In this document: piece by piece, positions 7,584 through 35,110 of the stretch | How positions within the stretch are numbered: the stretch's first letter is position 1 | How the letters are laid out: the number at the start of each line of letters is the position of its first letter | From: Patescibacteria group bacterium | GTDB lineage: Bacteria; Patescibacteriota; Microgenomatia; Levybacterales; UBA12049 | Reading direction: 5' to 3' | Assembly (NCBI GenBank): GCA_038061615.1 | Contig: JBBTYY010000015.1 | Coordinates: forward strand, 1,298 to 65,297 | DNA: 64,000 nucleotides | Notes under the pieces: model-generated | The model's input: the letters and a program-made list of their open reading frames with translations, nothing else | Database searches by the model: none | Told to the model about the DNA's origin: nothing | Position numbers and translations under genes: made by a program

Positions 7584-7585
7584 AA

Positions 7586-19476: not shown

Positions 19477-20095
19477 TTAGCGTTTTTACAGCTAGAAGTT
19501 GATAAGATAGGCTTGGAAAATAATACAAGAATGGTTCAGTAATAAAGGCAATAATACCCCATATTATCCAAGGCTTATATTTTATTGTCGCACACGCTCC
19601 TCTTATGAATTTAAAACTGCGCAATCCATATACTTTATAACCAAATTTCTCGAAATCTCTTTTATTCCACCCAGATTTATGATGCTGATACGGGTTCTGA
19701 TCATAATGATCTTGATGACAAAATTCATTTGGAGTAAGAATAATTATTTTTTTCCGCGCAACTCTCTCCATTGTCCTAAGCAGTTGAACACCATCTTTTT
19801 TTCTTAAATGCTCAATCACATCTAGGGCAATGATAGCATCAAAAGTTTTTGGCTTATAATACGTATCAATTTCTCTAATATCTCCTACAATGTATCTGTT
19901 ATGTATTTTTCTTTTTTCACTTTTGTCGATACTTGGTTTATGAATATCAATGCCTTCTGAATAAATATTTTTTAATAAGAGACGGAGAGGCGAATTTTGC
20001 CCGCACCCTACATCTAAGATTGACTTATAGCCATAAATACCTCTGCTTATAATTTTATAAAAAAATATATCTTTGAACTGATTTATTGATTTCAT
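19463..20095 (-). CDS. Class I SAM-dependent methyltransferase
   Basis: 210 aa. ILDVGCGQN (motif I) and AIIALDVIEHL (motif post-II). Confidence 0.7.
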   Translation of the reverse strand: MKSINQFKDIFFYKIISRGIYGYKSILDVGCGQNSPLRLLLKNIYSEGIDIHKPSIDKSEKRKIHNRYIVGDIREIDTYYKPKTFDAIIALDVIEHLRKKDGVQLLRTMERVARKKIIILTPNEFCHQDHYDQNPYQHHKSGWNKRDFEKFGYKVYGLRSFKFIRGACATIKYKPWIIWGIIAFITEPFLYYFPSLSYQLLAVKTLNEKK

Positions 20096-20319
20096 AAAAC
20101 TGATATCTTCTCCATTGTCAAAATATTAAAATGTGATTCATTCTTTCTTTGCAAATAATATTCCAATAGTGTTATTACCGTTAATTACACCAACCACGAA
20201 ATTATTTTTTATCAGGAACTTTTTCTAGCAATTAACCCAAAGTAATTAAGATAGAATGATATTCGTAAAAACTTTTTCATGTATATTTAATTGTTTTAGA
20301 AATTGTCTTAACTTTGAAC

Positions 20320-20676
20320 TTATTCTTCTTTCCACTGCTGTATAATACCGATTAATAAGAAGAAAAAAATCCAGACTGCTGCTTTTTCTGTAGCTGGCGA
20401 CGTCCCCGTAAAAAGAAACTCAATGTACATGATTCCCAAAAGTACTAGGCAAAACAAAAAAGCATATCTTCCAGCAAGTTTATATAACATTATACTTATA
20501 CCGTATAGTCCTAACGTTATAAATATTCTTATGTCTGAACTTTCTGGAATAAGTAAAATATCTGCTAATACCGCCAAAACGACGATCGTAAGTAAAACTG
20601 GTTTGTTTTTCAAAGCGATATTAAGAAAAAATAAAGTTTTCTTGTTCCCTTGAAGCAAAGTAAAAGGAGAAATCAT
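20320..20676 (-). CDS. Small 3-4 TM membrane protein, hypothetical
   Basis: 118 aa, hydrophobic, 4-nt overlap with the upstream large membrane protein gene. No family motif recognised. Confidence 0.45.
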   Translation of the reverse strand: MISPFTLLQGNKKTLFFLNIALKNKPVLLTIVVLAVLADILLIPESSDIRIFITLGLYGISIMLYKLAGRYAFLFCLVLLGIMYIEFLFTGTSPATEKAAVWIFFFLLIGIIQQWKEE

Positions 20677-23120
20677 AAAATTATATTTATTATACCAAAA
20701 AGTCTTTTCCTATAAAAGAGAAAAGCTCCCCACAGCATACAGAAAATAAAAACTTGTAACGATACAACCAAACCTGCATAGAATATTCTTTGATCTGTCA
20801 TCTCCACGACGAGAGAGTAACTATCTCTTCCACCTACATCCTCGGGCAAAACAACCCAAGCATTCGCATATCCATTTACCTGAAAATGTCTATAGCTTGC
20901 AATCGCTTTCTTTCCCCATGTAGAAAACGTGGACTCGTCCAGAAATGTATTACTGTGTACGCCTTCTGTTACTTTACCATCAAAATAATTCGATAGGGTC
21001 TTTTTTTGTTGAGGCTCTGTATAGGCAGGGAAAAGACTCCAATTCCTATGAAATGACTCAGAAAAAACAAGAACATATCGATCTTTTGCCCCATTTACTT
21101 TCAGCCTATATCTAGTTGGGTTTATTTTTTCGAATTGAATTTTTGGCAAATCACTCGGCCCAGAACTAAATTCCTTACTGCATATTCTTTTTTGAAAGTT
21201 TTTTTTACATATCTGTTCTTCTATGAATATAGAACGCGCCTCACTTGTTTTTTTGTATGGAAAAAAAGATGAAGCGCTTTCAAAATAGGGATGCAGCTTT
21301 GGATTGTTATCATAAGTAATTATAGTATTGGTTATATAAAAATGGGGCAGAAAGTTCTGCTCATCTGTCTCATACAATCCATACTGTCCTTTTTCATATA
21401 TCTTTTTTGTTGTTATTTTGTTCACAAAATCTTCATACCCTTTTTGAGTAGAAGGAAGAAAGGTACGAACATGCTGATATGGATAAGAAGGAAAAGTTGT
21501 ATCATAAACAAGCGGGTCTTTATTATAAAAAATGTATTTAACATTAAGAAGACTTAGCATACGTTTAATTGATGTATAATCTTTTTCCTTTGCCAATTTT
21601 AAAAAAATCTCACTAAATGGCGCAATATTTATGTATCCTGCAAAATCTTTTTTTCCGGCAAGATACCCTATGGTTGATACTCCTACATAGGCTCCGCTAT
21701 TTGTGCCGTGAATCACTTGATAATTGGGGTCTGTAAATGGCAAGGTTAATATTTTACTGTCGTCTGGTAACGAACGGATGAATGCGAGTGTTTCTTTATA
21801 CTTTGGATCCATGACCATCGCGATTTTAACATTGTTTGACTGAAAATGAGTCTTGTTTACAAGCGAGCCATTTATAAATGGCCACGCCCCTAATATCAGA
21901 ACAAGTCCTATGCCAAAATATAAAATTCCAGCATACATCTGCCTAAGCCTAGAAGACACCAAAAAGAGCGCCTGTCCAAATAAAATAGCGTAAAAAAAAG
22001 AAAATACAAAAAGCCATTGGCCGATAAAATTGCGAAACATCGAAAATCCGGGGATGTAAAAAAGTCTTTTATATATTTCAACCCCTAAATCGGTAATTTT
22101 AGCGCTTAGTAAAAAGAGAATTATTAAGAGAAATATTCCGGTTAAAAGCATTGTTTTGTTTCTGCCTCTATTTAATAAAAATCCAAGAATTACAACTAAA
22201 GGAACCATCACAGACGTAAAACCAAGCATATTAACAGGAGGCAAGGAAAGAATATTCAAACTAACCTTAGCAAAAGGCAAAACTCCAAAAAAATAGTCCA
22301 ACTGATGAACAATGTCCTCTCTGCTAAATACCCTTGTGTTTGTGTTGCTACCCGGATCAAACAAGCTTAAAACCGATGGTATAAGGTGAAAAGAGTGGAG
22401 CCCGACAAATAGTAAAATGCCGGCGAAAATTCCCTTCCAGGGAAGCTTTTTGCCTCGAATAAAGGTTACATAGAAAAAAAGAAACAATAAGCTTAGAGGA
22501 TAAAACGAAAAAATTAATGGAGCAGAAACCCATGAAAAGTTATGGGCAAAAATGAACGTTATTATAAGAATAAACCAAAGATACTTAATGTTACTGGTTA
22601 AGAGATACTTTAAAAGTAAATAGAAGACGAGCGGGTTTAAGAATACCTGGTCGTGATTAAGCAATGCTTTCTCCCAGTTTCCTATCATTCTGGGAGAAAG
22701 GATATAAAAGAAACCGGCAAGCACCGAAGAAATCTCGCGAAGCATCGAAAAATATTTATTATTGTACTTTTTATCAATGAGTTCTTTAACAATGCCGTAA
22801 ACAGCAAGAAAAGCAACAACTAATTTTATGGAATTGAATACTGAAATTAAAAGATAGGGAGATTGCAAAATTGATTTCATGCCAGAAAGAAGTATTACAA
22901 TTGGCAGGCTATAGAAATGAGGCTCTACTAAGCCCATTCCAAAAGGCAGAATATTATAGAGACTGTAATTATTAAGGTAATTTATCGGGTCATAGAAATA
23001 CAGCCTACTGCTGTCTCCACCTAAATCCATCTCACCCGGTTTTAACCAGAAAAAAGGAATAATAAAAAGAAGAAGAGAAATTATGAATAAATAAGTTTTC
23101 GAACTGAGTAGAAGCTTCAT
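20673..23120 (-). CDS. Large polytopic membrane protein, YfhO/AftD-like putative GT-C glycosyltransferase (paralogue of 15790..19476)
   Basis: ORF track gives 20673..23225 (850 aa). By alignment with its paralogue (MKK...LFIIPFFWLKPGEMDLGGD), the likely start is the internal Met at 23120 (MKLLLSSKTYLFIISLLLFIIPFFWLKPGEMDLGGDSSRLYFYDP). Shares the C-terminal ...QVNGYANAWVV... + TM block. Confidence 0.75.
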   Translation of the reverse strand: MKLLLSSKTYLFIISLLLFIIPFFWLKPGEMDLGGDSSRLYFYDPINYLNNYSLYNILPFGMGLVEPHFYSLPIVILLSGMKSILQSPYLLISVFNSIKLVVAFLAVYGIVKELIDKKYNNKYFSMLREISSVLAGFFYILSPRMIGNWEKALLNHDQVFLNPLVFYLLLKYLLTSNIKYLWFILIITFIFAHNFSWVSAPLIFSFYPLSLLFLFFYVTFIRGKKLPWKGIFAGILLFVGLHSFHLIPSVLSLFDPGSNTNTRVFSREDIVHQLDYFFGVLPFAKVSLNILSLPPVNMLGFTSVMVPLVVILGFLLNRGRNKTMLLTGIFLLIILFLLSAKITDLGVEIYKRLFYIPGFSMFRNFIGQWLFVFSFFYAILFGQALFLVSSRLRQMYAGILYFGIGLVLILGAWPFINGSLVNKTHFQSNNVKIAMVMDPKYKETLAFIRSLPDDSKILTLPFTDPNYQVIHGTNSGAYVGVSTIGYLAGKKDFAGYINIAPFSEIFLKLAKEKDYTSIKRMLSLLNVKYIFYNKDPLVYDTTFPSYPYQHVRTFLPSTQKGYEDFVNKITTKKIYEKGQYGLYETDEQNFLPHFYITNTIITYDNNPKLHPYFESASSFFPYKKTSEARSIFIEEQICKKNFQKRICSKEFSSGPSDLPKIQFEKINPTRYRLKVNGAKDRYVLVFSESFHRNWSLFPAYTEPQQKKTLSNYFDGKVTEGVHSNTFLDESTFSTWGKKAIASYRHFQVNGYANAWVVLPEDVGGRDSYSLVVEMTDQRIFYAGLVVSLQVFIFCMLWGAFLFYRKRLFGIINIIL

Positions 23121-23182
23121 CAATGTTGGTATTATATCATCTTGGTATTGATAAAAATAAGAGCAGAGAATATAATTTCCGT

Positions 23183-24400
23183 ATGGTAAAAAATGGAAAC
23201 AGTAATCTTCGGGTTCCTTACGCACTGGCCGTTCACGGAAACGAAGAAAAATTAAGGGTTATAAAAGTTTTGGATGAACATAGAACAAATTTAGGAAAAG
23301 AAACTATAGAATTTGAGAAAAATGTTGCAAAAGCGTTTGGCAAAAAATTCGGCGTAATGGTAAATTCAGGCTCATCTGCTAATTTTCTTGCCATTGAACT
23401 CTTAAATCTTCCACCAAAATCGGAGGTAATTACTCCCCTTCTTACATTCTCAACCACAGTTTCGCCACTTGTTCAGCATGGACTTATTCCAGTTTTTGCA
23501 GACGTTGATCCTGGAAAATATACAGTTAATGTTGATCAAATTGAAAAGCTTATAACAAAAAAGACAAAAGCTCTTATGATACCTCTCCTTCTAGGAAATG
23601 TCCCAGATATGGGAAGGTTAAAAGAAATTGCCAAAAAGCATAAATTATTTTTCGTTGAAGATTCATGCGATACATTAGGAGCTACTTTTAACGGCAAACC
23701 AACGGGAGCATATTCCGATATCACAATTACCAGTTTTTTTGGATCCCACATTATAACCGCAGGCGGCAACGGCGGAATGATTATGGTAAACCGAGCCGAC
23801 TGGAAAGACAAAGTAAATGTCTTAAGAGGATGGGGCAGATCGTCTGCACTTTTTGCCGAATCGGAAAATATCGAGAAGCGTTTTAAAACTAAATTGGGAA
23901 CTATTCCTTATGATGCAAAATTTTTATTTGACGAAATAGGATATAACTTTCTTCCAAATGAGATGGGTTCTGCTTTTGGAAATGCACAGCTTGAAAAACT
24001 TCCTAAATTTAGAAAAATAAGAGAGTACAATTTTAGATACTTAATTAATTTTTTCAAAAAATATGAGGAATTTTTCATCCTTCCTAAGCAGGATAAAAAA
24101 GTTTCTACTCAATGGCTCGCTTTTCCCTTAACCATAAGAGCGAGCGCTCCTTTCTCAAGACTTGAGTTGGTAAAATATCTTGAAGCAGAAAATATCCAGA
24201 CCCGTCCAATCTTTACAGGAAATATATTAAAACACCCGGGTTTTAAGAACATTTCACACAGGATAATCAGTGGCGGATGTCCAGTCACAGATGAGGTCAC
24301 GGAGAGGGGATTTGTGATTGGCTGCCACCATGGTCTTGAAGAAAAACACGTTGAAAAAATCAAACGAGTATTTGCTTCTTTCCCTAAGAAATATTTATAA
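23183..24400 (+). CDS. PMP-dependent NDP-4-keto-6-deoxyhexose 3-dehydratase-like (E1/RfbH/ColD-like DegT-family member with His replacing the catalytic Lys)
   Basis: DegT-family fold (NSGSSANFLAI, FVEDSCDTLGA). The Schiff-base Lys position reads SFFGSHIITAGGNGG, where aminotransferases have SF..K..TxGEGG. The His substitution is the hallmark of E1 and ColD dehydratases. Start is probably the second Met (23183) to avoid overlap with the divergent gene. Confidence 0.65.
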   Translation: MVKNGNSNLRVPYALAVHGNEEKLRVIKVLDEHRTNLGKETIEFEKNVAKAFGKKFGVMVNSGSSANFLAIELLNLPPKSEVITPLLTFSTTVSPLVQHGLIPVFADVDPGKYTVNVDQIEKLITKKTKALMIPLLLGNVPDMGRLKEIAKKHKLFFVEDSCDTLGATFNGKPTGAYSDITITSFFGSHIITAGGNGGMIMVNRADWKDKVNVLRGWGRSSALFAESENIEKRFKTKLGTIPYDAKFLFDEIGYNFLPNEMGSAFGNAQLEKLPKFRKIREYNFRYLINFFKKYEEFFILPKQDKKVSTQWLAFPLTIRASAPFSRLELVKYLEAENIQTRPIFTGNILKHPGFKNISHRIISGGCPVTDEVTERGFVIGCHHGLEEKHVEKIKRVFASFPKKYL

Positions 24401-25307
24401 ATTTTAGAATTGTTTCTGTTATTTGCTGAACAGAGAGCCCATTATATTCTAGTAAATATTGTACAGATCCAGTGATACTCGTAAATTTGTCGGGTACACC
24501 AAAACGGTAAAACTTTACCTGCCTTCCAGATTCGGCAATAATTTCGGCTACTGCGCTCCCTAATCCGCCAATAATATTATGCTCTTCTAGAGTAAAAATA
24601 TATCCTGTTTTCCTTGCTGCTTCTAAAATTATTTTTTTATTAATTGGTTTTATGACCGGAAGAGAGATTAATGTCCCCTCCGCGTTTTTTTTTGACAAAA
24701 CTTCTACAATGTCCAGAGCCATTGGTAATAAACTACCACTTACAAAAAGAGTGAATTTGCCACCATTTTTTATTTTTATTCCAGCTTCAGGATGAAACAA
24801 TTGTTGAGTTTTATGGATCACAGGACTCCCCGCCTTAGTTATTCGTATATATACTGGACCATTAATCTCGTATGCAGCTTTTGTTGCCCATTCTGCTTCA
24901 ATTGGATCTCCCGGAGTAAAAATAGTCATGTTAGGAAGTAATCTCATCAGTCCTACATCTTCTAAAGCAAAATGGCTTACTCCTAACTGATTAGAACTAA
25001 ATCCTGCAGCGACACCAATGATCTTTACGTTAACGTGATTATAGGCAACATCAAGTCGAATCTGTTCAAAACATCTCATTGTTGCAAAGGGAGCCTGGGC
25101 GTAAAAGAAAACTTTATAACCGCAGAGCGCGAGACCAGTTGCAATACCAATAGTACTTTGTTCTGTTACCCCAGTATTCAAAAAACGCTCTGGAAATTCT
25201 TTTTCTACATCTTCAAAAACTGAAAATCCCATATCAGCGGTTAGAGAAATAATATCTTCATTAACTCTCATCAAATCAACAAGAGTATTTAAAAAGGCAG
25301 TTCTCAT
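24384..25307 (-). CDS. Transketolase C-terminal-section subunit (split transketolase)
   Basis: 307 aa. Pyrimidine-binding and C-terminal domains (FLNTGVTEQSTIGIATGLALCGYKVFFYAQAPFA...). Confidence 0.8.
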   Translation of the reverse strand: MRTAFLNTLVDLMRVNEDIISLTADMGFSVFEDVEKEFPERFLNTGVTEQSTIGIATGLALCGYKVFFYAQAPFATMRCFEQIRLDVAYNHVNVKIIGVAAGFSSNQLGVSHFALEDVGLMRLLPNMTIFTPGDPIEAEWATKAAYEINGPVYIRITKAGSPVIHKTQQLFHPEAGIKIKNGGKFTLFVSGSLLPMALDIVEVLSKKNAEGTLISLPVIKPINKKIILEAARKTGYIFTLEEHNIIGGLGSAVAEIIAESGRQVKFYRFGVPDKFTSITGSVQYLLEYNGLSVQQITETILKFINIS

Positions 25308-26128
25308 AGCCCTAACTCGCTTTCAGCAATCTTAATTTCTTTTTCTGTTGGAGTTCTATAATGCCATTCATTTCTATCCTCTAATACCGAAACCCCTTTA
25401 CCTTTAATAGTATGAGCAATAACAATACTTGGCTTACCTTTTTCGAATGGAAGCCTTGAAAAAACTTGCGAAATTTCCTCAAAACTATGACCATCAATTT
25501 CTTTTACAGACCATTTAAATGCTTCCCATTTCTTAACAAAAGGCTCTAAATCCAAAACATCTGCAACCCGACCAAAGCTCTGCCATTTGTTGTAATCGAC
25601 AATAACAACAAGATTATCGAGCTTGTGATGGCCAGCTTGTAAAATTGCTTCCCATGTTGATCCTTCATCACATTCACCATCGCTTGTCATAACAAATACT
25701 CTATATTCTCTTTTTTGCAGTTTTCCAGCCAAAGCCATACCAACTCCAATTGGAAGACCATGTCCCATTGATCCGGTTGTTGCTTCTATACCAGGAGTTC
25801 CATTTCTTGTTGCAATGCCAATCATCTTACTACCATCTTGACAATACGTATCAAGCAGTTTTTTTTCAAAAAACCCTTTTCTTGCTAAGATTGTATATAA
25901 TGTTGATATCCCCCATCCTTTACTCAAAATGAAACGATCGCGATTTGGATCTTGAGGATTTTTTGGATCAATCTTAAGAATCTTCTCATACAAATATACT
26001 ATTAATTCAACAATAGAATATGATGAGGCGATATGAGATGCGTGAGCAGCAACTATTATCGATAATACAGTTTGTCTGATTTCCCTTGCATACTTTTTAA
26101 GCGACTCAAATTCTTTTTTATCAAGCAT
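25304..26128 (-). CDS. Transketolase N-terminal-section subunit (ThDP-binding)
   Basis: 274 aa. GSMGHGLPIGVGMALAGK and VMTSDGECDEGSTWEA are ThDP-binding motifs. 4-nt overlap with the C-terminal subunit gene. Confidence 0.8.
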   Translation of the reverse strand: MLDKKEFESLKKYAREIRQTVLSIIVAAHASHIASSYSIVELIVYLYEKILKIDPKNPQDPNRDRFILSKGWGISTLYTILARKGFFEKKLLDTYCQDGSKMIGIATRNGTPGIEATTGSMGHGLPIGVGMALAGKLQKREYRVFVMTSDGECDEGSTWEAILQAGHHKLDNLVVIVDYNKWQSFGRVADVLDLEPFVKKWEAFKWSVKEIDGHSFEEISQVFSRLPFEKGKPSIVIAHTIKGKGVSVLEDRNEWHYRTPTEKEIKIAESELGL

Positions 26129-27062
26129 AAAGGCTAGAATATTGCTTAAACCATTCTATTGTCTTTTTTAGACCCGTATGTAATTCATACTTTGACTGCC
26201 ATTTTAAGATTTTCTGAGCTTTTGATATATCTGCTTCCCATTTCTTAGGTTCTATCTGTCTTGTCTGCTTTTTGGCCTTGCCCCATACAATTTTTGAATT
26301 GCTATTTGTTATTTGCAGAATTAGGCTGACAACATCTGATATTTGATGCTGCTCTCCACTACTAATATTATATATCTCACCCGGATTGCTTTCACTATCT
26401 ATAGCTTTTATGTATGCATCCACTACATCTTCGATAAATATAAAATCTCTTACGTTATTTGGCGAAGATAATTCTATTGATTGGTTTTTAAGAGCGCTAG
26501 CTATAACCAAAGGAATTAATCTGCTTTTATCCTCAAAATAACCATATGGTGAAAATAAACGAAATGTAATTATTGGAAGATTATTGCGTATTGCCTCTTT
26601 CTGACAAAATAGGGTGGCAGCTGCTTTTGTTATACCATAATCATTGACAGGAGTAATCATATCAGATTCTTTCATTTTTTCACTTTTGATTCCGTATTCG
26701 GAAGAACTTCCCGCATTAATAAAAAGTTTGAATCTATGTTTTTTGCTTGCATTTACAAGATTTATCGTTCCTTTGATATTTACATCAACCATTTGGGTTA
26801 TGATATTTTCAGAAGGAAGAGAACCATAGGAAGCAAGATGGAAGATATAGGTAGGCATAATTCTTGCAATTACCGCATCCAATGATTTACCTAGAAGATC
26901 ACATTCGTAAATATCTAATTTTGAAGCGATATCGTACAGTCTCCAATTTAATCTTTTATCCCGAACAATAACACTAACGTGTTTTTTTTGACGAACTAGT
27001 TCTCTCGTCAAGCAAGCACCAATAAAACCAGTAGCTCCGGTTATTAAATAAATATCCTGCAT
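26121..27062 (-). CDS. NAD(P)-dependent SDR epimerase/reductase (possible CDP-4-keto-sugar reductase, RfbJ/RfbS-like)
   Basis: 313 aa. ITGATGFIGACL Rossmann motif and a YxxxK-type extended SDR. Located in the CDP-sugar module. Confidence 0.7.
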   Translation of the reverse strand: MQDIYLITGATGFIGACLTRELVRQKKHVSVIVRDKRLNWRLYDIASKLDIYECDLLGKSLDAVIARIMPTYIFHLASYGSLPSENIITQMVDVNIKGTINLVNASKKHRFKLFINAGSSSEYGIKSEKMKESDMITPVNDYGITKAAATLFCQKEAIRNNLPIITFRLFSPYGYFEDKSRLIPLVIASALKNQSIELSSPNNVRDFIFIEDVVDAYIKAIDSESNPGEIYNISSGEQHQISDVVSLILQITNSNSKIVWGKAKKQTRQIEPKKWEADISKAQKILKWQSKYELHTGLKKTIEWFKQYSSLYA

Positions 27063-27063
27063 A

Positions 27064-28029
27064 CTAATTATTCTCCTTTGTTAAGACATTTTTATACCAA
27101 GCAAAAACTGTTTTTAGGCTATTTTCTAAATTATAGCTAGGCTTCCAGCCAAGCTTTCTGATTTTAGCATCATTTAAATGCTGATAAGGAATTTCATTTT
27201 TTGCAGTATTCAATATTTTGTATTGAATTTTAATTTTTAATATTTCTTCTGCCTTTTTTATTAAATCCAGAACAGAAAGCGTATCGCTTGATGAGAAATT
27301 AAAAACTTCACCTTTTATTTTATCAAAGTTATCCAACAGAAATAGATAACCATCAATAACATCTTTTATATATAAATAGTCTCTTACGTATGTCCCATTG
27401 CTCCGTATCCTAAGGACTTTCTTCTTAATTATAGCTTCACAAATATCGGGAACAATCCTGCCAAAATGTAAGTCTCCCTCTCCGTATACGTTCCCAAAGC
27501 GAGTAATTACCACCGGAAGGTCGTAGGTTTTAAAGTATGCTTGTGAAATAAGGTCAGCAGATGCTTTCGAAACATCGTATGGATGATCTGCTCTAAGGGG
27601 GGAATCTTCGGTATATGCTTTCTTTGTTTTTCCATATGCCTTGTCCGAAGATGCAATAATTATCCCTTTTATAAATTTTGATGCCCTTGCGGCCTCCAAT
27701 ATATTAACCGTTCCCATAATGTTTGTTTCAAATGCTTTGTGGGGATCAGTATATGCTTCCTGAACGATTGGCTCTGCAGCAAGATGGAAAATGTAGTCGG
27801 GTTTAAATTTCTTAAAGAAGCCGAACACCTTTTCCTTATCTCTAATATCAATAAGCTTTAACAACACCTTATTCTTGAGATTATTAAGAGCAAATGTAGA
27901 TTTAGGATGAACTTTTATATCTATAACGGCTACCTTCGCACCGCTTGCAACAAGCTCTCCAACTAAATGACCGCCTATAAACCCCGTTCCGCCAGTTACT
28001 AAAATTTTCGAATTCTTAATACTTATCAC
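27064..28029 (-). CDS. rfbG: CDP-glucose 4,6-dehydratase (RfbG/DdhB-like)
   Basis: 321 aa. TNIMGTVNILEA, ASSDKAYG, HPYDVSKASADL and RFGNVYGEGDLHFGRIVPDICEAI parallel RfbG TNVMGTVYLLEA / ITSDKCY / YDPYSNSKGCAEL / RAGNVIGGGDWALDRIVPDILRA. Confidence 0.8.
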   Translation of the reverse strand: MISIKNSKILVTGGTGFIGGHLVGELVASGAKVAVIDIKVHPKSTFALNNLKNKVLLKLIDIRDKEKVFGFFKKFKPDYIFHLAAEPIVQEAYTDPHKAFETNIMGTVNILEAARASKFIKGIIIASSDKAYGKTKKAYTEDSPLRADHPYDVSKASADLISQAYFKTYDLPVVITRFGNVYGEGDLHFGRIVPDICEAIIKKKVLRIRSNGTYVRDYLYIKDVIDGYLFLLDNFDKIKGEVFNFSSSDTLSVLDLIKKAEEILKIKIQYKILNTAKNEIPYQHLNDAKIRKLGWKPSYNLENSLKTVFAWYKNVLTKENN

Positions 28030-28061
28030 GATCTACATACCTAATACTTAATATCTAGTTA

Positions 28062-28772
28062 TCATTTCCACACCTTCCATTTAGGATCTTCCCGCCAAAA
28101 TTTATTAAGATTATCTACATCCGGATATGTATCCATAGAGTGCCAAAAATCGTCATGGAGATATAGAGAAAGCTGTCTCTTTTTAACAAGCCGTTTTAAA
28201 GCTTGATGCTCCATTTCTCCTTTTTTTAAAAAATCAAAAAAACCTCTTTTAAAAACCATGAATCCTCCGTTTACCCATTCTTTGAGAACAGGTTTTTCGA
28301 TAAATGAGGTGATTATTTTGTTTTTGTCGGTGGCTAGGAGCCCATATTTACTGCGCGGATGAACGCCTGTCACGGTTCCAATCGTTCCCTGTTTTTTATG
28401 AAATTTTACAAGCTCCTTAATGTTAATATCCGATACTCCGTCTCCATAAGTAACCATAAAATTTTCATCTTCTTTTGGAATATAATCTTTCACTCTTAAG
28501 ATTCTTTCTCCCGGCAACGTCTCTTCGCCCGTATCAACGAGGGTGATCTTAAAATCATGGGTCATATGCTTTTGATTTAGAAAATATTGTTTAATATAGT
28601 CCCCCTTATAGCCCAAGGCGATAATAAATTCATTAAAGCCATAATAAGAATATATTTTCATTATGTGCCAGAGAATTGGTTTTCCTCCGATATTTACCAT
28701 TGGCTTTGGCTTAAACTCTGTTTCTTCTTTTAGTCGGTAACCAATTCCCCCACAAAGAATTATTGTTTTCAT
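28062..28772 (-). CDS. rfbF: Glucose-1-phosphate cytidylyltransferase (RfbF/DdhA-like)
   Basis: 236 aa. [45 protein letters not shown] is near-identical in pattern to RfbF [42 protein letters not shown]. Also TLVDTG and [11 protein letters not shown]. Confidence 0.85.
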   Translation of the reverse strand: [236 protein letters not shown]

Positions 28773-28779
28773 ATCAAGA

Positions 28780-29814
28780 TTATACCTTTCTTTTTACAAA
28801 TGAGAAAGCCTGAATCATCCAGAATGTTTCATAGTAAACCAAAAAAATATCGATAAATGGTAAAAAAATAATTCGGGGATTTAATAAGGTAGATAAAGTT
28901 GTATATATTTTTTTTGAATTAACAAAGGCATAGATAATTAATAATACTATCCCAAACAAATGCAGGTTTGGTATAAATGGCAAAATTGCTAATCCCGGCT
29001 TAATCAAAAAATTCAAAACTCCTAGCGGAATGAGTAATCCTTTTCCATAAGTTTTAAGCGGAAGAGATTTTCCTTGAAATCTTATAAGCCTGCCATAAGT
29101 TCTGGCCAGTAGTTTTCTATTTTTTATCCAATCAGACAAAGAGTAATTGTTGCCTAAGTAATGCAGATGAATTACTTTAGCCTTACTTAGAATAAGCTTT
29201 CCTTTATTTTCCAAGCGTAAATATAAATCTGCATCTTCACCTCCAACACTTACATCTCCACCAAACGATATCTCATTAAATCCTCCCACTCGTACAAATG
29301 CCTTTTTTTTCACACAATCAAATTTACCATTAAAACCGGCACTTTCTTTATCAACTGATCTTGAAAAAAGACATTTCTGCCAAAAATTATAAGTATCCCA
29401 TACATTTTTCGGCAATATCACTTTTGGATATGACGCAACAACTTTTAAGTCCTTTCCGAAAGGCTCAACTAATTTTTCAATTTCATGGTCAGAAGGAAGC
29501 GAACTGTCCGAATGCATAAATATTACATGAGATGAAATAGCTTTCTTTACACCAAAATTATAACTTGCGCCAACACCCTTATTTTCCTTTCGTCTAATGA
29601 TATGTACGGGAATTATAGATTTTTTTGCAAATTCTAAAGCTAATTCAACAGAATTGTCAGTTGAAACATTATCAACTATTATTATTTCCTTTATTGGATA
29701 ACTCTGTCTTACAACGCTTTTTAGTGTATGCAAAATTGTCGTCGCAGAATTTTTCATGGGAATAATGACGCTTACCAGAAAAGGTGCAATTCTCTCCAAT
29801 TGATGTTGTTTCAT
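28780..29814 (-). CDS. GT2 glycosyltransferase with C-terminal TM segments
   Basis: 344 aa. VSVIIPMKN, IIIVDNVSTDNS, and a C-terminal hydrophobic region. Confidence 0.7.
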   Translation of the reverse strand: MKQHQLERIAPFLVSVIIPMKNSATTILHTLKSVVRQSYPIKEIIIVDNVSTDNSVELALEFAKKSIIPVHIIRRKENKGVGASYNFGVKKAISSHVIFMHSDSSLPSDHEIEKLVEPFGKDLKVVASYPKVILPKNVWDTYNFWQKCLFSRSVDKESAGFNGKFDCVKKKAFVRVGGFNEISFGGDVSVGGEDADLYLRLENKGKLILSKAKVIHLHYLGNNYSLSDWIKNRKLLARTYGRLIRFQGKSLPLKTYGKGLLIPLGVLNFLIKPGLAILPFIPNLHLFGIVLLIIYAFVNSKKIYTTLSTLLNPRIIFLPFIDIFLVYYETFWMIQAFSFVKRKV

Positions 29815-29815: not shown

Positions 29816-30925
29816 TTAACAGTCTTCTAAAAAATTGAATTTTTGAGCGTAATAGTTTTCGTAGTAAAAATAATTGTTAAACCTTTTTAACCCTTCCAAA
29901 TAGACATCACAGCTCTTTCTTATTTTTTCAATCGCAATACGAAGTGATTCTATGTCCCGGTTAATAACTTCTCCTGCATTAAATTTCTTGACATAGGGAG
30001 CTATGATTGATGTATTTGACATAATAATTGGCAGTCCAAGCTCTGCGTATTCTTTTATCTTACCCGGATCAACATAATAAGTCCCATGTATACTGCCCGT
30101 AAGATAAGGAGCCACTCCGACGAAACATTTCTTTGAGATTGCCTCAAGTTCTTCCTTCGGAATAAATTTATTAGGAAAGTAAACTCGGTTTGTAATCCTA
30201 TATTGAGTAAGAAGTTTTTTATATTTCTTATATAGTTTGCCATCGCAAACTCCAATAATACTAAACTTGTACTCTTTATTTTCTTTCAAAAAGGAGAAAA
30301 TAAGATCCAGTCCCTGAGATTCTTTTATAACGCCTACAAAAAGCATTGTAAGTGAGCCTTGAGGAATACCTTTTCGTATAATTCTTGGTCTTACTCCCCA
30401 CAAAATAGTTTTTCTTTTTTTTGTGTTAATAATTTTTCCGTTCATTAATTTATTGACTCTATCTCCAAAATAGGCTGTAAAATTAACCCTCTTGTGATAA
30501 AAGTTCTTAAGATCATCAAATAATCGTAGTGTTAGATTGGCTCTTGGAAAATATTCAATCCAAAAGACAAATCTGATATTTTTTAACAATCTTTGAGCAA
30601 ACATACCAAAAAAAGAAATTGGGTGAAAGGTAATAACAACTGCTTTATCTTCCCTTGTAAAATATTTAAAAATAAACTTAATATAACTTACGTACCATAA
30701 AAAATAATATAGAAAAATATTTTTAGATAACTCAATTTCTTTCTGTTCTATTATTGATCCCTCGTTATAAACACGCACTATATTGCCTTTATTTTTTATC
30801 CTTGGCTGGACAATAAATACGACAAGCTTCTGTGTATTTTTAGCAAAATATTCCTCTATATTGCCGCAAAACTGTAGACTTGCATACAAAAAAATATTTT
30901 TATATCTGAATCTTTTACTTATCAT
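29816..30925 (-). CDS. GT4-like glycosyltransferase
   Basis: 369 aa. C-terminal GT4-like block (FVGVAPYL..., EYAELGLPIIMSN). Confidence 0.6.
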   Translation of the reverse strand: MISKRFRYKNIFLYASLQFCGNIEEYFAKNTQKLVVFIVQPRIKNKGNIVRVYNEGSIIEQKEIELSKNIFLYYFLWYVSYIKFIFKYFTREDKAVVITFHPISFFGMFAQRLLKNIRFVFWIEYFPRANLTLRLFDDLKNFYHKRVNFTAYFGDRVNKLMNGKIINTKKRKTILWGVRPRIIRKGIPQGSLTMLFVGVIKESQGLDLIFSFLKENKEYKFSIIGVCDGKLYKKYKKLLTQYRITNRVYFPNKFIPKEELEAISKKCFVGVAPYLTGSIHGTYYVDPGKIKEYAELGLPIIMSNTSIIAPYVKKFNAGEVINRDIESLRIAIEKIRKSCDVYLEGLKRFNNYFYYENYYAQKFNFLEDC

Positions 30926-31664: not shown

Positions 31665-32936
31665 TTATAGCCTAGTTTCTCCGTTTTTATCTATAACGTA
31701 TGGGTAGGGCATTATAAAAAGTAGTTTTCCGCCCTTTCTGATATACTCCCTTTCTCTCTCCAGAATTTCCTCTTTAAAATTCCATGGAATGACAAACATA
31801 CAATCCGGCTTAAGCTTTCTTGCCTCTTCCTCCGAAATTAATATCATATCTGTACCTAATGTTCGCAGTCCAATCTTGAAAGGATTCCTTTCGCTAATAT
31901 AAGGAAGCATTTTCTTGTTTATTCCGCAAAGCTGGAGCATAACATTGCCCTTAGTTGATGCCCCCAAACCGATAACCAATCCTTTTTGATTTGCAATGTA
32001 CTTTTTAACCTTTTTAGTATTTATTTCTATTAATTTTGAAAAGGCGTCGTATGTTTGCGGGCTCTCAAGCTGGAGCACTTTTTCTTTGAGAAGCAAATAC
32101 TCCAAATTTGCCGATTTCGGTCTTTTTGCTTCCTTATGCGCCGCCATTATCCTTAAGCTCCCTCCATTTACAAAATTAGTCGATGCGTCAAAAACTTCCA
32201 TTCCATTTTTTTCCATTAGGTAACTTAGCGTTTTTAGAGAAAAATACTCTAGATGTTCGTGACAAATATCATAAAAATTCATATCTTTGATCGTGTCGTA
32301 TAAATAACTTACTTGGATACAAAGAACACCATCTTTACCCAAAATTCTCTTAAGCTGCTTTACTCCTTCATTTGGATTATCTAAATCGTAGAACATAGCC
32401 GTTGAGGTAATAATTTTGAATTTTTTTCCCTCTAATTGTGGGCTTGGAAAATAATCATTAATTATTTTAATTGATTTATCAAGATGACTCCAATCAATAT
32501 TTTTTGCCGGATCAATGCCATATCTGTTTAGTTTTTTAGAGTAAAATGTAAGCATTAGTCCATCATTACATCCCACATCCAGCACATTATCACCATCCTT
32601 TAAAACTACACTACCTGTTACATCGGCTACTACGTCTCTTAAATCTCTATTCATCGTATTTGAGACATTTGAACGATAAAAGTAATTTGAATATAAGAGA
32701 TCCGGATTGACCGTCTCGAGTAATTGAACTAGGCCACACTTTTTACAAAGAAGTAAGGTCATGGGAATCTTAATTTTAGATTTCGGGTTGTTTAAATTCG
32801 TTTCTACAAAAGTGGATGCGATATATTGAGGTTTTATTTTAACGACAGCGATCAGGCTGATTGAGTGACAAGTCCTACACTTCTTAACGAGTCTAAAATT
32901 TTCCATTAAAGCATATTTTACCCTATTATTGAGCAA
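31665..32936 (-). CDS. Second NDP-sugar C-methyltransferase (Zn-ribbon + SAM MTase + C-MT C-terminal domain), paralogue of 5005..6258
   Basis: 423 aa. CRTC...CKKC zinc-ribbon, VLDVGCNDGLML, and a long conserved C-terminal domain. Confidence 0.65.
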   Translation of the reverse strand: MLNNRVKYALMENFRLVKKCRTCHSISLIAVVKIKPQYIASTFVETNLNNPKSKIKIPMTLLLCKKCGLVQLLETVNPDLLYSNYFYRSNVSNTMNRDLRDVVADVTGSVVLKDGDNVLDVGCNDGLMLTFYSKKLNRYGIDPAKNIDWSHLDKSIKIINDYFPSPQLEGKKFKIITSTAMFYDLDNPNEGVKQLKRILGKDGVLCIQVSYLYDTIKDMNFYDICHEHLEYFSLKTLSYLMEKNGMEVFDASTNFVNGGSLRIMAAHKEAKRPKSANLEYLLLKEKVLQLESPQTYDAFSKLIEINTKKVKKYIANQKGLVIGLGASTKGNVMLQLCGINKKMLPYISERNPFKIGLRTLGTDMILISEEEARKLKPDCMFVIPWNFKEEILEREREYIRKGGKLLFIMPYPYVIDKNGETRL

Positions 32937-32955
32937 GAATACAAGAAGAAATTAG

Positions 32956-35102: not shown

Positions 35103-35110
<8 letters not shown>
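33926..35110 (-). CDS. ColD/E1-like PMP-dependent sugar 3-dehydratase (DegT family with His-His at the catalytic Lys position)
   Basis: 394 aa. VNSGSSANLALI, IEDNCESLG and FSFYVGHHLSTIEGGAI. The HH replacing xK is characteristic of ColD (GDP-4-keto-6-deoxymannose 3-dehydratase) and E1. Confidence 0.65.

What the first reader, a model, noticed from the sequence alone, without database searches (positions are those of the whole stretch)
23183..28772. CDP-hexose module containing a split transketolase pair and an E1-like 3-dehydratase: possible branched-chain 3,6-dideoxyhexose
RfbF-like cytidylyltransferase, RfbG-like CDP-glucose 4,6-dehydratase and an SDR reductase are followed by transketolase N- and C-subunit genes, and divergently by a DegT-family protein in which the Schiff-base Lys is replaced by His (SFFGSHIITAGGNGG). 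That substitution is characteristic of E1 (CDP-6-deoxy-L-threo-D-glycero-4-hexulose 3-dehydrase). ThDP enzymes inside deoxysugar clusters are used to attach two-carbon branches, as in yersiniose. A transketolase-type enzyme in a CDP-3,6-dideoxyhexose context suggests an unusual branched dideoxy sugar. No E3 reductase gene is visible in the window.
Basis: partly seen in the sequence, partly recalled or inferred. Interest (0 to 1): 0.65.

Follow-up and report, generated by a model that had tools for sequence, protein, structure and literature searches.

The report
CDP-sugar operon with specialised transketolase-like pair
A candidate-phyla-radiation bacterium carries a sugar-nucleotide operon in which a remodelled, non-housekeeping transketolase-like enzyme and an iron-sulfur-free relative of the E1 3-dehydratase sit with CDP-glucose pathway genes, which points to an uncharacterised route to a carbon-branched deoxysugar for its cell surface.

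Summary
Window 23183-28772 encodes RfbF-like, RfbG-like, an extended SDR, split TktN/TktC, and an E1/RfbH homologue with His in place of the Schiff-base Lys. One detail is wrong: the E1-like gene is convergent with TktC, not divergent.

Two refinements change the picture.

1. The E1 homologue keeps only C193 of the [2Fe-2S] ligands (C251, C253 and C261 are lost). So do all 120 closest homologues and all 80 metagenomic relatives. It belongs to a large cluster-less E1 clade, probably with ColD-type chemistry. This would explain why the 64-kb window has no E3 gene.

2. The TK pair is not a pentose-phosphate enzyme. The ThDP machinery is intact, but donor-site His66 and His100 are Trp and Ile. On the acceptor side, Ser385, His461, Asp469 and Arg520 are Phe, Ala, Leu and Lys. 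This "W-type" is one clade within a wider set of glycan-cluster TK-like pairs. RfbF-RfbG-SDR-TktN-TktC recurs in Patescibacteria, and similar modules occur in Paenibacillus, Bacteroides, Bradyrhizobium and others.

Most likely function: ThDP-dependent addition of a two-carbon branch to a CDP-4-keto-(3,)6-deoxyhexose, as in yersiniose. The hydrophobic donor pocket favours a pyruvate-type donor over a ketol donor. None of this is shown biochemically. I class it as a new variant of a known kind.

The parts
28062..28772 (-). RfbF-like glucose-1-phosphate cytidylyltransferase. It is 236 aa, with an internal deletion of about 20 aa relative to Salmonella RfbF and to CPR homologues.
   Evidence: TIGR02623 E=5e-74, 249 bits against a cut-off of 300. 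Best PDB match is 1tzf at 188 bits, and the alignment shows the gap. Homologues in L085, L086, L087 and L171 are 258-261 aa.
27064..28029 (-). RfbG-like CDP-glucose 4,6-dehydratase (extended SDR)
   Evidence: TIGR02622 E=1.6e-62, 212 bits against a cut-off of 278. Best PDB match is 1rkx, CDP-glucose 4,6-dehydratase, at 136 bits. SSDKAYG aligns with TSDKCYD, and YDVSK with YSNSK.
26121..27062 (-). SDR2: an extended SDR with a Ser...YxxxK triad and no dehydratase motif. Its stop overlaps the TktN start by 8 nt. Proposed to be a ketoreductase acting on the branch or on C-4.
   Evidence: Pfam Epimerase E=7e-46. Best PDB matches are UDP-GlcA/Glc 4-epimerases at about 90 bits. Orthologues at 37-58% identity lie immediately upstream of TktN in L005, L085, L087, L096, L100, L102, L139, L170, L171 and L067.
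25304..26128 (-). TktN: the ThDP-binding (PP-domain) subunit of a split transketolase-like enzyme, 'W-type'
   Evidence: Transketolase_N E=3e-40. Aligned to the 6yak N subunit at 214 bits. His26, the GDG...N motif and His261 are kept. His66 is Trp (SKGWG) and His100 is Ile. All 120 close homologues share SKGW and lack a His at position 100.
24384..25307 (-). TktC: the Pyr-domain plus C-terminal-domain subunit. Its start overlaps the TktN stop by 4 nt.
   Evidence: Transket_pyr E=2.5e-28 and Transketolase_C E=1e-18. Aligned to 6yaj at 208 bits. Arg358, Glu411 and His473 are kept. Ser385 is Phe, His461 is Ala, Glu468 is Gln, Asp469 is Leu and Arg520 is Lys.
23183..24400 (+). Cluster-less E1/RfbH homologue, a PMP/PLP-dependent sugar 3-dehydratase candidate. 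The ORF opens at 23123, but the likely start is the ATG at 23183. It is convergent with TktC.
   Evidence: NF011936 RfbH at 343 bits against a cut-off of 423. PDB match to E1 3bcx is 257 bits, against 168 bits for ColD. His aligns with His220 and C193 is kept; C251, C253 and C261 are absent. Homologues are 398-405 aa. The start context is shown.
28780..29814 (-). GT2 glycosyltransferase with a hydrophobic C-terminal tail, syntenic with the module. It is the likely user of the CDP-sugar, possibly transferring it to a polyprenyl phosphate.
   Evidence: Glycos_transf_2 E=4e-30. Orthologues at 43-63% identity lie directly upstream of RfbF in L087, L171, L088 and L086.
20673..23120 (-). Polytopic membrane protein of about 815 aa with no Pfam match. 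It is divergent from the E1-like gene and syntenic with the module. Candidate GT-C-type transferase.
   Evidence: No Pfam or NCBIfam hit. Orthologues at 43-49% identity flank the module in L171, L087 and L088, and it is a paralogue of the 1228-aa protein at 15790-19476. A relative in L085 shows only a faint GT-C_AftD hit.

Best explanation
The region is the sugar-nucleotide tailoring core of a very large surface-glycan island in a Patescibacteria (CPR) genome.

Proposed pathway, with the status of each step:

1. The RfbF-like enzyme makes CDP-glucose. Family assignment only.
2. The RfbG-like enzyme makes CDP-4-keto-6-deoxyglucose. Family assignment plus catalytic motifs.
3. The E1 homologue removes the 3-OH. 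It keeps the catalytic His but has lost the [2Fe-2S] ligands. I infer that it works as ColD does: hydrolysis of the sugar-enamine intermediate, with PMP regenerated from an amino acid, so no E3 reductase is needed.
4. The TktN/TktC heterodimer is a specialised ThDP carboligase, not a pentose-phosphate transketolase. I infer that it forms a ThDP-bound two-carbon carbanion and adds it to the C-4 carbonyl of the CDP-ketosugar, giving a tertiary-alcohol branch as YerE does in yersiniose biosynthesis. Both histidines that hold the donor's C1 hydroxyl in true transketolases are hydrophobic here (Trp, Ile). The donor is therefore more likely pyruvate or another non-hydroxylated 2-oxo acid (acetyl transfer) than a ketose or hydroxypyruvate.
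5. The translationally coupled SDR then reduces a carbonyl, either the branch carbonyl (YerF-like) or C-4. Inference.
6. The adjacent GT2, and the syntenic large membrane proteins, install the sugar on a surface polymer. Inference.
For: Operon structure: the genes are tightly packed (RfbG and SDR2 1 nt apart; SDR2/TktN overlap 8 nt; TktN/TktC overlap 4 nt).

TK catalytic core is intact: His26, Asp155/Asn185, His261, Glu411 and His473 are all present. The substrate sites are remodelled: His66Trp, His100Ile, Ser385Phe, His461Ala, Asp469Leu, Arg520Lys. Replacing the His100 equivalent with Leu is what lets engineered transketolase accept pyruvate (PMC11997939).

The W-type signature is invariant in 120 homologues of 63-100% identity. 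It forms a single clade in an NJ tree, separate from the canonical and the catabolic split TKs.

Synteny:
- RfbF-RfbG-SDR2-TktN-TktC recurs in L085, L087 and L171, all independent CPR contigs.
- 18 of 80 GTDB loci carrying TktN relatives have RfbF within 10 kb, and about 10 also have E1.
- Among them is Paenibacillus chibensis, with E1-RfbF-RfbG-SDR2-TktN-TktC-TylF MT-GT2.

E1 homologue: His220 is kept and C251/C253/C261 are absent in the window protein, in all 120 closest homologues and in all 80 metagenome relatives. E1 homologues from non-CPR TK-linked loci keep all four Cys. No E3-like gene occurs in 64 kb.

Literature: ColD is the precedent for cluster-free C-3 deoxygenation (PMC8987622). 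YerE is the precedent for a ThDP-dependent branch on CDP-4-keto-3,6-dideoxyglucose, and split TKs have been proposed, but never shown, to branch ketosugars (PMC12247030).
Against: - No enzyme of this TK clade, and no cluster-less E1, has been characterised. Every chemical step after RfbG is inferred.
- Transketolases normally use aldehyde acceptors. Use of a ketone acceptor by a TK is only a proposal in the literature.
- The E1-like gene is missing from some otherwise identical modules (L171, L085, L086). Most cluster-less E1 genes (about 73 of 80 loci, many of them short) have no TK nearby. The two enzymes are therefore not obligately coupled.
- An SDR2 homologue at 58% identity occurs without a TK in L091, so SDR2 may be an ordinary 4-ketoreductase.
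- One W-type pair (L168, Woesearchaeota) sits in a different, phosphonate-like context without RfbF/RfbG.
- His473 is retained here, whereas engineered pyruvate-using TKs also change it.
- I could not check whether this genome has a second, canonical transketolase.
Confidence: 0.5

Rival explanations
1. The TK pair is simply the organism's housekeeping pentose-phosphate transketolase, and it happens to lie inside the glycan island.
For: CPR genomes are small and commonly encode split transketolases (general knowledge, not tested here). The ThDP-binding and core catalytic residues are intact. Copy number in this genome could not be checked.
Against: - Six substrate-site residues that define transketolase specificity are replaced: His66, His100, Ser385, His461, Asp469 and Arg520.
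- Canonical split TKs (L065, L070, L081, 6yak) keep them and fall in a separate clade.
- The pair is translationally coupled to a sugar SDR, and the same five-gene module recurs.
- L085 carries two different pairs in tandem.
- Relatives occur in glycan clusters of bacteria that are expected to have a normal tkt.
Confidence: 0.05
2. The TK-like pair does not act on the CDP-sugar. Instead it makes or reshapes a small non-nucleotide building block that feeds the glycan pathway or is attached later. Candidates are a ketose phosphate precursor or an acyloin/glycolyl-type substituent.
For: Sister clades of the same TK-like family sit in heptose-type clusters (GmhA/HldE-like/kinase/HAD) and in catabolic clusters (FGGY kinase, isomerase, ABC transporter), where sugar-phosphate substrates are expected. 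The W-type pair in L168 has no RfbF/RfbG neighbour. Arg358 of the phosphate site is retained and Arg520 is conservatively Lys.
Against: In the window clade the pair is embedded between nucleotide-sugar enzymes, with overlapping reading frames. The module has no kinase, phosphatase or isomerase. The phosphate-site residues Ser385 and His461 are lost.
Confidence: 0.2
3. The pair extends the sugar chain instead of branching it. It would transfer a two-carbon unit to an aldehyde, for example a C-6 aldehyde of a CDP-hexodialdose, to build a higher-carbon sugar (octose type).
For: Aldehydes are the natural acceptors of transketolases. L086 places a UDP-glucose-dehydrogenase-family gene directly upstream of a W-type pair. 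Two SDRs of uncertain specificity are present.
Against: The RfbG-like protein keeps the SDK/YxxxK dehydratase motifs. The expected intermediate is therefore 6-deoxy, with no C-6 aldehyde. The window module has no dedicated C-6 oxidase.
Confidence: 0.1
4. The His-containing E1 homologue is not a 3-dehydratase in this context. It might instead be a slow aminotransferase or epimerase, or act on another NDP-sugar of the island, so the TK substrate would keep its 3-OH.
For: The gene is on the opposite strand and is absent from some modules (L171, L085, L086). SpnQ shows aminotransferase activity without its reductase (PMC8987622). The island contains other 4,6-dehydratase-like genes, and a second, ColD-like, dehydratase.
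Against: The catalytic His is invariant in 200 relatives. Genuine aminotransferases in the same loci carry Lys. Cluster-less E1 genes are frequently adjacent to RfbF/RfbG.
Confidence: 0.12

Closest known systems
YerE/YerF of CDP-yersiniose A biosynthesis (Yersinia pseudotuberculosis)
   Same: It is a CDP-glucose-derived pathway: RfbF, RfbG, then E1. A ThDP enzyme adds a two-carbon unit from pyruvate to C-4 of CDP-4-keto-3,6-dideoxyglucose, and a reductase follows (PMC12247030). The gene logic and the predicted chemistry match.
   Different: YerE is a single-chain enzyme of the acetolactate-synthase/decarboxylase type (a flavoprotein, from my own knowledge). Here the ThDP enzyme is a two-subunit transketolase-fold protein (Pfam Transketolase_N, Transket_pyr, Transketolase_C). 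The Yersinia pathway uses a cluster-containing E1 with E3. This one has a cluster-less E1 homologue and no E3.
Split-gene transketolases proposed for miharamycin/amipurimycin and other Streptomyces sugar-branching clusters
   Same: They are two-gene TK-fold enzymes placed in sugar-tailoring clusters and proposed to attack a ketosugar carbonyl (PMC12247030).
   Different: Those enzymes are proposed to transfer hydroxyacetyl units in actinomycete secondary metabolism. All 13 listed are from Streptomycetes, and none has been characterised. The present clade sits in primary surface-glycan clusters of CPR/DPANN and many other phyla, is linked to CDP-hexose genes, and has lost the two histidines that bind the donor hydroxyl.
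Canonical split transketolase (Carboxydothermus hydrogenoformans, PDB 6yak/6yaj)
   Same: It is the best structural relative (214 and 208 bits). It has the same two-subunit architecture, ThDP motif, cofactor-activating Glu, and His26/His261/His473.
   Different: The equivalents of His66, His100, Ser385, His461, Asp469 and Arg520 are replaced in the window pair, and the genomic context is glycan biosynthesis.
E1 (AscC/DdhC/RfbH), CDP-6-deoxy-L-threo-D-glycero-4-hexulose 3-dehydrase
   Same: It is the closest characterised homologue (257 bits). The catalytic His220 and C193 are conserved, and the neighbours are CDP-glucose pathway genes.
   Different: The window protein lacks C251, C253 and C261 of the [2Fe-2S] motif, has Ile for His221, has no E3 partner in the window, and scores below the NCBIfam RfbH cut-off.
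ColD, GDP-4-keto-6-deoxymannose 3-dehydratase
   Same: It is a His-for-Lys 3-dehydratase without an Fe-S cluster. It regenerates PMP by transamination and needs no reductase (PMC8987622). This is the mechanism proposed for the window enzyme.
   Different: The window protein is less similar in sequence to ColD (168 bits) than to E1. ColD belongs to a GDP-mannose pathway. The window has its own separate ColD homologue at 33926-35110 (215 bits).

Membership tests
Transketolase (EC 2.2.1.1), split type | Two-subunit TK fold: PP domain, Pyr domain and C-terminal domain | tested here: met
   Pfam Transketolase_N E=3e-40, Transket_pyr E=2.5e-28, Transketolase_C E=1e-18. Best PDB matches are 6yak and 6yaj.
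Transketolase (EC 2.2.1.1), split type | ThDP/metal-binding GDG...N motif, cofactor-activating Glu (E. coli Glu411), and catalytic His26, His261 and His473 | tested here: met
   SDGE...DYN, GVTEQS, and the three His columns are all conserved in alignments to 6yak/6yaj and in the family table.
Transketolase (EC 2.2.1.1), split type | Donor C1-hydroxyl-binding histidines (E. coli His66 and His100) | tested here: not met
   SKGH is SKGW here, and QGHP is IGIA. The same holds in all 120 close homologues.
Transketolase (EC 2.2.1.1), split type | Acceptor-site and phosphate-site residues (Arg358, Ser385, His461, Asp469, Arg520) | tested here: not met
   Arg358 is kept. Ser385 is Phe, His461 is Ala, Asp469 is Leu and Arg520 is Lys.
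Transketolase (EC 2.2.1.1), split type | It is the genome's pentose-phosphate enzyme (single housekeeping copy) | not testable with these tools
   Only 64 kb of the genome is available. Context and phylogeny argue against this.
E1 (CDP-6-deoxy-L-threo-D-glycero-4-hexulose 3-dehydrase) | Catalytic His replacing the Schiff-base Lys (His220) | tested here: met
   The alignment to 3bcx, and to the H220K mutant 3bb8, places the window His on His220.
E1 (CDP-6-deoxy-L-threo-D-glycero-4-hexulose 3-dehydrase) | [2Fe-2S] motif C193-X57-C251-X1-C253-X7-C261 | tested here: not met
   Only C193 is present. WGRDCYCAPGCDNTCKKRF in E1 is WGRSSALFAESEN-IEKRF in the window protein. All 200 relatives examined have no Cys in this stretch.
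E1 (CDP-6-deoxy-L-threo-D-glycero-4-hexulose 3-dehydrase) | Dedicated E3 (AscD-type flavin/[2Fe-2S]) reductase partner | tested here: not met
   No FNR-, Fer2- or FAD-binding-domain protein among all window ORFs of at least 110 aa. The rest of the genome was not available.
E1 (CDP-6-deoxy-L-threo-D-glycero-4-hexulose 3-dehydrase) | Score above the curated equivalog threshold (NF011936 RfbH) | tested here: not met
   343 bits against a cut-off of 423.
ColD-type (cluster-free) NDP-sugar 3-dehydratase | His for Lys, with no Fe-S ligands | tested here: met
   mechanism from PMC8987622.
ColD-type (cluster-free) NDP-sugar 3-dehydratase | Orthology to ColD and a GDP-mannose pathway context | tested here: not met
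   168 bits to ColD against 257 bits to E1. The neighbours are CDP-glucose genes. A separate true ColD homologue lies at 33926-35110.
ColD-type (cluster-free) NDP-sugar 3-dehydratase | Glutamate-dependent PMP regeneration and 3-deoxygenation activity | not testable with these tools
   This needs an enzyme assay.
RfbF / RfbG (CDP-glucose synthesis and 4,6-dehydration) | Best match to the equivalog models and structures, and catalytic motifs | tested here: inconclusive
   TIGR02623 and TIGR02622 are the top hits but score below their cut-offs (249 vs 300, 212 vs 278). The best PDB matches are 1tzf and 1rkx. SDK/YxxSK is conserved in RfbG. RfbF has a deletion of about 20 aa.
YerE-type ThDP branching enzyme | Single-chain decarboxylase/acetolactate-synthase-fold ThDP enzyme (TPP_enzyme_N/M/C) | tested here: not met
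   The window proteins have TK-type domains only, with one weak partial TPP_enzyme_C hit. The resemblance lies in the proposed function, not in family membership.

The most novel reading that the evidence does not exclude
Patescibacteria and DPANN archaea carry a natural transketolase lineage whose donor pocket has been rebuilt (His66Trp, His100 to a small or hydrophobic residue). It would decarboxylate pyruvate and transfer an acetyl equivalent onto the C-4 ketone of a CDP-4-keto-(3,)6-deoxyhexose. It works alongside an E1 descendant that has dispensed with its iron-sulfur cluster and with E3. On this reading the module is a convergent, cofactor-economical reinvention of the yersiniose-type branched-sugar pathway. 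It would also be the first TK-fold enzyme shown to form a tertiary alcohol on a nucleotide sugar. Sister H-type pairs, which occur in tandem with a W-type pair in L085, would add hydroxyacetyl branches.
Probability: 0.3. Interest if true: 0.75.

Novelty: new variant of a known kind. Interest (0 to 1): 0.62.

Why it matters
ThDP-dependent branching of nucleotide sugars is known biochemically only for YerE-type enzymes. TK-fold enzymes have been proposed for this role, but none has been characterised (PMC12247030).

This analysis shows that TK-like pairs with non-canonical substrate sites are a widespread, syntenic component of CDP-hexose clusters across many phyla. It defines a distinct CPR/DPANN clade with a hydrophobic donor pocket. 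It also identifies a culturable carrier of a related (H-type) module, Paenibacillus chibensis, which makes the hypothesis directly testable.

Separately, it finds a large clade of E1 homologues that have lost the [2Fe-2S] site. That would extend ColD-type, reductase-independent C-3 deoxygenation to the CDP-glucose pathway. It would also explain how organisms with reduced metabolism could make 3,6-dideoxyhexoses.

Both enzyme families are potential biocatalysts, for tertiary alcohols and for deoxysugars. Both bear on the almost unknown surface glycans of CPR bacteria.

Tried and rejected
- **Housekeeping-TK reading.** Rejected on active-site substitutions, synteny and phylogeny.
- **Canonical E1/E3 pathway.** Rejected because three of the four cluster cysteines are absent and a Pfam scan of every window ORF of at least 110 aa found no E3-like protein.
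- **Assigning SDR2 from PDB and NCBIfam.** Only weak, non-specific matches to 4-epimerases, dehydratases and reductases, so its role stays open.
- **Literature searches.** I looked for a described link between transketolase and CDP-glucose, rfbF/G/H, flagellin glycosylation islands or yersiniose. Apart from the general ThDP review, nothing relevant came back. One of these searches was poorly targeted and returned only unrelated papers, and one search failed on term syntax.
- **Obligate coupling of the cluster-less E1 and the TK pair.** Tested and rejected. Only about 7 of 80 metagenome loci seeded on the E1 homologue carry a TK pair, and several TK modules lack the E1 homologue.
- **Not attempted.** Structure prediction, because the homology alignments to solved TK, E1 and ColD structures already place the key residues. 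A whole-genome check for a second tkt or an E3, because no such tool was available.

Full report
**What is in the sequence**

The window has about 33% GC. Its proteins are identical to ones that NCBI labels "Patescibacteria group bacterium". The minus strand carries one long, tightly packed operon.

Within 24384-28772 the genes are as follows.
- RfbF-like cytidylyltransferase, 28062-28772: TIGR02623 E=5e-74; best PDB match 1tzf.
- RfbG-like CDP-glucose 4,6-dehydratase, 27064-28029: TIGR02622 E=1.6e-62; best PDB match 1rkx. SDK and YxxSK are aligned.
- An extended SDR ("SDR2"), 26121-27062.
- TktN, 25304-26128.
- TktC, 24384-25307.

RfbG and SDR2 are 1 nt apart. SDR2 and TktN overlap by 8 nt, and TktN and TktC by 4 nt.

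On the plus strand a DegT-family gene runs from 23123 to 24400. Its homologues are 398-405 aa, so the real start is probably the ATG at 23183. Its 3' end overlaps that of TktC. It is divergent only from the gene for an 815-aa membrane protein upstream.

**The DegT homologue**

Its best match among solved structures is E1 of Yersinia pseudotuberculosis (3bcx, 257 bits), ahead of ColD (168 bits).

The His of SFFGSHIIT aligns with E1 His220. The H220K mutant entry 3bb8 identifies the position unambiguously. The Lys-to-His claim therefore holds.

The [2Fe-2S] ligands are a different matter. Numbering recovered from the alignment gives C193, C251, C253 and C261. This matches the four-Cys motif described in PMC8987622 and its reference 126. 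Only C193 survives: E1's WGRDCYCAPGCDNTCKKRF is WGRSSALFAESEN-IEKRF here.

This is not a quirk of one sequence.
- All 120 closest database homologues (69-100% identity) keep the His and have no Cys in that stretch.
- So do all 80 metagenomic loci recovered with a profile of the clade (41-82% identity). In 39 of them C193 is lost too.
- By contrast, the E1 homologues next to TK pairs in non-CPR genomes keep all four cysteines and the HH dipeptide. These are Paenibacillus, Bacteroides, Terracidiphilus, Sphingomonadales, Omnitrophota and others.

The window protein also scores below the NCBIfam RfbH cut-off (343 against 423).

A Pfam scan of every window ORF of at least 110 aa found no ferredoxin-NADP-reductase-type or Fer2 protein.

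The simplest reading is a cluster-less descendant of E1. It would complete C-3 deoxygenation as ColD does, by hydrolysis of the enamine, with PMP regenerated by transamination and no reductase (mechanism as reviewed in PMC8987622). That review lists only E1, ColD and SpnQ as characterised 3-dehydratases. This clade therefore appears to be uncharacterised.

**The transketolase pair**

The closest solved structure is the split transketolase of Carboxydothermus hydrogenoformans (6yak/6yaj; 214 and 208 bits). The alignments are confident at the relevant columns. I also tabulated the same columns over 80 genomic relatives.

Retained residues (E. coli numbering): His26, the GDG...N ThDP/metal motif, His261, Arg358, Glu411 and His473.

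Replaced residues:

| Residue | Window residue |
|---|---|
| His66 | Trp (SKGWG) |
| His100 | Ile |
| Ser385 | Phe |
| His461 | Ala |
| Glu468 | Gln |
| Asp469 | Leu |
| Arg520 | Lys |

From established TK enzymology, His66 and His100 hold the C1 hydroxyl of the donor. His461, Ser385, Arg358 and Arg520 hold the phosphate of the acceptor. Asp469 holds the acceptor's C2 hydroxyl.

Engineering work shows that changing the His100 equivalent to Leu is what lets a transketolase accept pyruvate, because a non-polar residue accommodates the alkyl group (PMC11997939).

It is a catalytically competent ThDP enzyme with a different substrate pair.

All 120 closest homologues share SKGW and lack a His at position 100. 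They come from Patescibacteria, with at least one from Woesearchaeota.

I built an NJ tree of concatenated TktN+TktC.
- This "W-type" forms a single clade.
- Its sister is an H-type group (L100, L102, L103) that also lies next to cluster-less E1 genes.
- Both sit inside a large radiation of glycan-cluster TK-like pairs.
- Canonical TKs (L065, L068, L070, L081) and a catabolic clade (FGGY kinase, isomerase, ABC transporter neighbours) are separate.

**Genomic association**

Eighty GTDB loci carrying TktN relatives were recovered from many phyla. They include Bradyrhizobium, Herbaspirillum, Sphingobium, Paenibacillus and Bacteroides, all of which are expected to carry an ordinary tkt (that point rests on general knowledge and was not tested here).
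- Eighteen of the 80 have an RfbF homologue within 10 kb, usually with RfbG. About ten also have E1.
- The other loci fall into a heptose-type context (GmhA, HldE-like, kinase, HAD, methyltransferase, ADH), a DegT/sugar-transferase/TylF-methyltransferase context, or the catabolic context.

Independent W-type contigs look like this.

| Locus | Arrangement |
|---|---|
| L087 | Reproduces the window exactly, including the opposite-strand E1 homologue |
| L171 | GT2-RfbF-RfbG-SDR2-TktN-TktC, no E1 homologue |
| L085 | RfbF-RfbG-SDR2, then two TK pairs in tandem (H-type, then W-type) |
| L170 | RfbG-SDR-SDR-TktN-TktC-E1 homologue |
| L005, L139 | E1 homologue...SDR2-TktN-TktC |
| L086 | RfbF-SDR-UDPG-dehydrogenase-family-TktN-TktC-RmlC-like |
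| L169 | The pair sits between GT2 genes |
| L168 (Woesearchaeota) | The pair sits beside a CDP-alcohol phosphotransferase, a nucleotidyltransferase, an Fe-ADH and a ThDP decarboxylase; no RfbF/RfbG |

The GT2 at 28780-29814, the GT4 at 29816-30925 and the 815-aa membrane protein are also syntenic with the module in L087, L171 and L088.

Seeding on the E1 homologue instead gives a different picture. Many loci have RfbF/RfbG next to it, but only about seven of 80 have a TK pair (many of these contigs are short).

The stable core is therefore RfbF-RfbG-SDR2-TktN-TktC. The cluster-less E1 is a frequent but optional partner.

In the culturable Paenibacillus chibensis NBRC 15958 (L067), the order is E1 (cluster type)-RfbF-RfbG-SDR2-TktN-TktC-TylF-like methyltransferase-GT2. 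These genes lie directly after nonulosonic-acid genes.

**How it most likely works**

What is shown:
- the gene families;
- intact ThDP and PMP/PLP catalytic cores;
- remodelled substrate sites;
- loss of the Fe-S ligands;
- the operon structure;
- recurrent synteny.

What is inferred:
1. Glucose-1-P is converted to CDP-glucose, then to CDP-4-keto-6-deoxyglucose.
2. Where the E1 homologue is present, ColD-type 3-deoxygenation follows.
3. The TK-like heterodimer generates a ThDP-bound two-carbon carbanion and adds it to the C-4 ketone. YerE does this with pyruvate on CDP-4-keto-3,6-dideoxyglucose (PMC12247030).
4. SDR2 then reduces the branch carbonyl (YerF-like) or another carbonyl.
5. The GT2, and probably the large membrane proteins, install the sugar.

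H-type relatives may use hydroxylated donors.

My confidence differs by claim:

| Claim | Confidence |
|---|---|
| The pair is a dedicated glycan-pathway enzyme | about 0.85 |
| The E1 homologue is cluster-free | about 0.9 from sequence |
| It is a reductase-independent 3-dehydratase | about 0.7 |
| The TK pair branches a CDP-ketosugar | about 0.45-0.5 |
| The donor is pyruvate-like | about 0.35 |

**Rivals**

- A housekeeping TK is very unlikely, for the reasons above. Copy number in this genome could not be checked.
- The pair may act on a non-nucleotide substrate. This is supported by the sugar-phosphate contexts of sister clades and by L168.
- It may extend a chain from an aldehyde instead of branching. 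The RfbG dehydratase motifs argue against this.
- The E1 homologue may serve another pathway in the island. It lies on the opposite strand, and the island has further dehydratase-like genes plus a true ColD homologue at 33926-35110.

**Comparison with known systems and novelty**

In function the module most resembles the yersiniose pathway, but the ThDP enzyme is not a YerE family member. In fold it is a split transketolase, yet it fails the substrate-site features that define transketolase.

Split TKs have been proposed to branch ketosugars in miharamycin/amipurimycin and in 13 Streptomyces clusters. [quoted passage not shown]

Searches of the open literature found nothing linking transketolase to the CDP-glucose pathway.

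I therefore class the finding as a new variant of a known kind: ThDP-dependent branching of a CDP-deoxyhexose, with a cluster-free variant of E1. It is of real but moderate interest, because every step after RfbG is inference. It becomes directly testable through P. chibensis or through heterologous expression.

Noticed in passing
window 31665-35110 (-): There is a second His-for-Lys dehydratase at 33926-35110. It is a true ColD homologue (PDB 2gms, 215 bits; motif FYVGHHLST). Next to it are a GDP-fucose-synthase-like SDR (32956-33933) and an NDP-hexose C-methyltransferase (31665-32936; Methyltransf_13/14). This suggests a separate colitose-like, possibly C-methylated, dideoxysugar pathway in the same operon.
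   Followed up: partly
window 3940-8707 (-): A third sugar-tailoring module. It contains an SDR, a second C-methyltransferase (5005-6258), a small cupin (6262-6645), a formyltransferase (6642-7583) and a Lys-type DegT aminotransferase (7586-8707). This looks like a route to an N-formylated, C-methylated amino-deoxysugar.
   Followed up: no
window 1-64000: Almost the whole 64-kb window is one glycan island. It has at least 12 GT2/GT4 glycosyltransferases, a Wzx-like flippase (43029-44351), an RmlC-like epimerase (42421-43038) and several large polytopic PMT_2/PTPS_related (GT-C-like) membrane proteins (46507-48156 and, among the large genes at 52027-62979, four with such hits). That is a large share of coding capacity for a small CPR genome.
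   Followed up: partly
window 41159-41527 and 50840-51202 (-): Two genes for '23S rRNA-intervening-sequence protein' (PF05635, four-helix-bundle/bAvd-like) are embedded between glycosyltransferase genes. They have no obvious link to glycan synthesis.
   Followed up: no
window 28062-28772 (-): The RfbF-like protein is 236 aa. It lacks about 20 residues, around positions 65-70, that are present in Salmonella RfbF (1tzf) and in the 258-261-aa homologues of related CPR contigs, including an 81%-identical one in L088. The deletion is in frame and shared by all contigs of this organism (L001-L004). Its effect on activity is unknown.
   Followed up: partly
window 13607-23120 (-): Three large proteins without any Pfam or NCBIfam match (728, 1228 and about 815 aa). 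The 815-aa and 1228-aa proteins are paralogues (about 43-47% identity over about 590 aa). They are conserved next to the TK module in L087, L171 and L088, together with a small 118-aa membrane protein. They are candidates for novel glycan-transfer or glycan-polymerisation components.
   Followed up: partly
L085 7224-10748: Two different TK-like pairs lie in tandem after RfbF-RfbG-SDR2. The first keeps the donor-site histidines (H-type). The second is W-type. This suggests either two successive or alternative carboligations, or a recent duplication followed by a change in donor specificity.
   Followed up: partly
L168 2411-11229 (Woesearchaeota archaeon, GCA_018303205.1): An archaeal W-type TK pair that is 74%/70% identical to the window proteins. 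It lies beside a CDP-alcohol phosphotransferase, a nucleotidyltransferase, an Fe-ADH and a ThDP decarboxylase-type gene. That context resembles phosphonate or CDP-alcohol head-group synthesis more than CDP-hexose tailoring. It implies transfer between CPR and DPANN, and possibly a different substrate.
   Followed up: no
L067 801-14413 (Paenibacillus chibensis NBRC 15958): A culturable Firmicute carries E1 (with an intact Fe-S motif)-RfbF-RfbG-SDR2-TktN-TktC-TylF-like O-methyltransferase-GT2. These genes follow directly after nonulosonic-acid biosynthesis genes (CTP_transf_3, NeuB, Epimerase_2, PglD-like, DegT). No E3 gene lies in the cluster. It is a practical system for testing the function of the TK pair.
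   Followed up: partly
L029, L030, L035, L039, L042, L043, L045, L080 and others: A separate conserved context for TK-like pairs. The neighbours are GmhA, an HldE-like kinase/nucleotidyltransferase, an APH-like kinase, a HAD phosphatase, a methyltransferase, a Zn-ADH and an SDR, in Betaproteobacteria, Bradyrhizobium, Omnitrophota and others. The TktC signature there is NEG..ELHH. It looks like an uncharacterised heptose-derived pathway.
   Followed up: no
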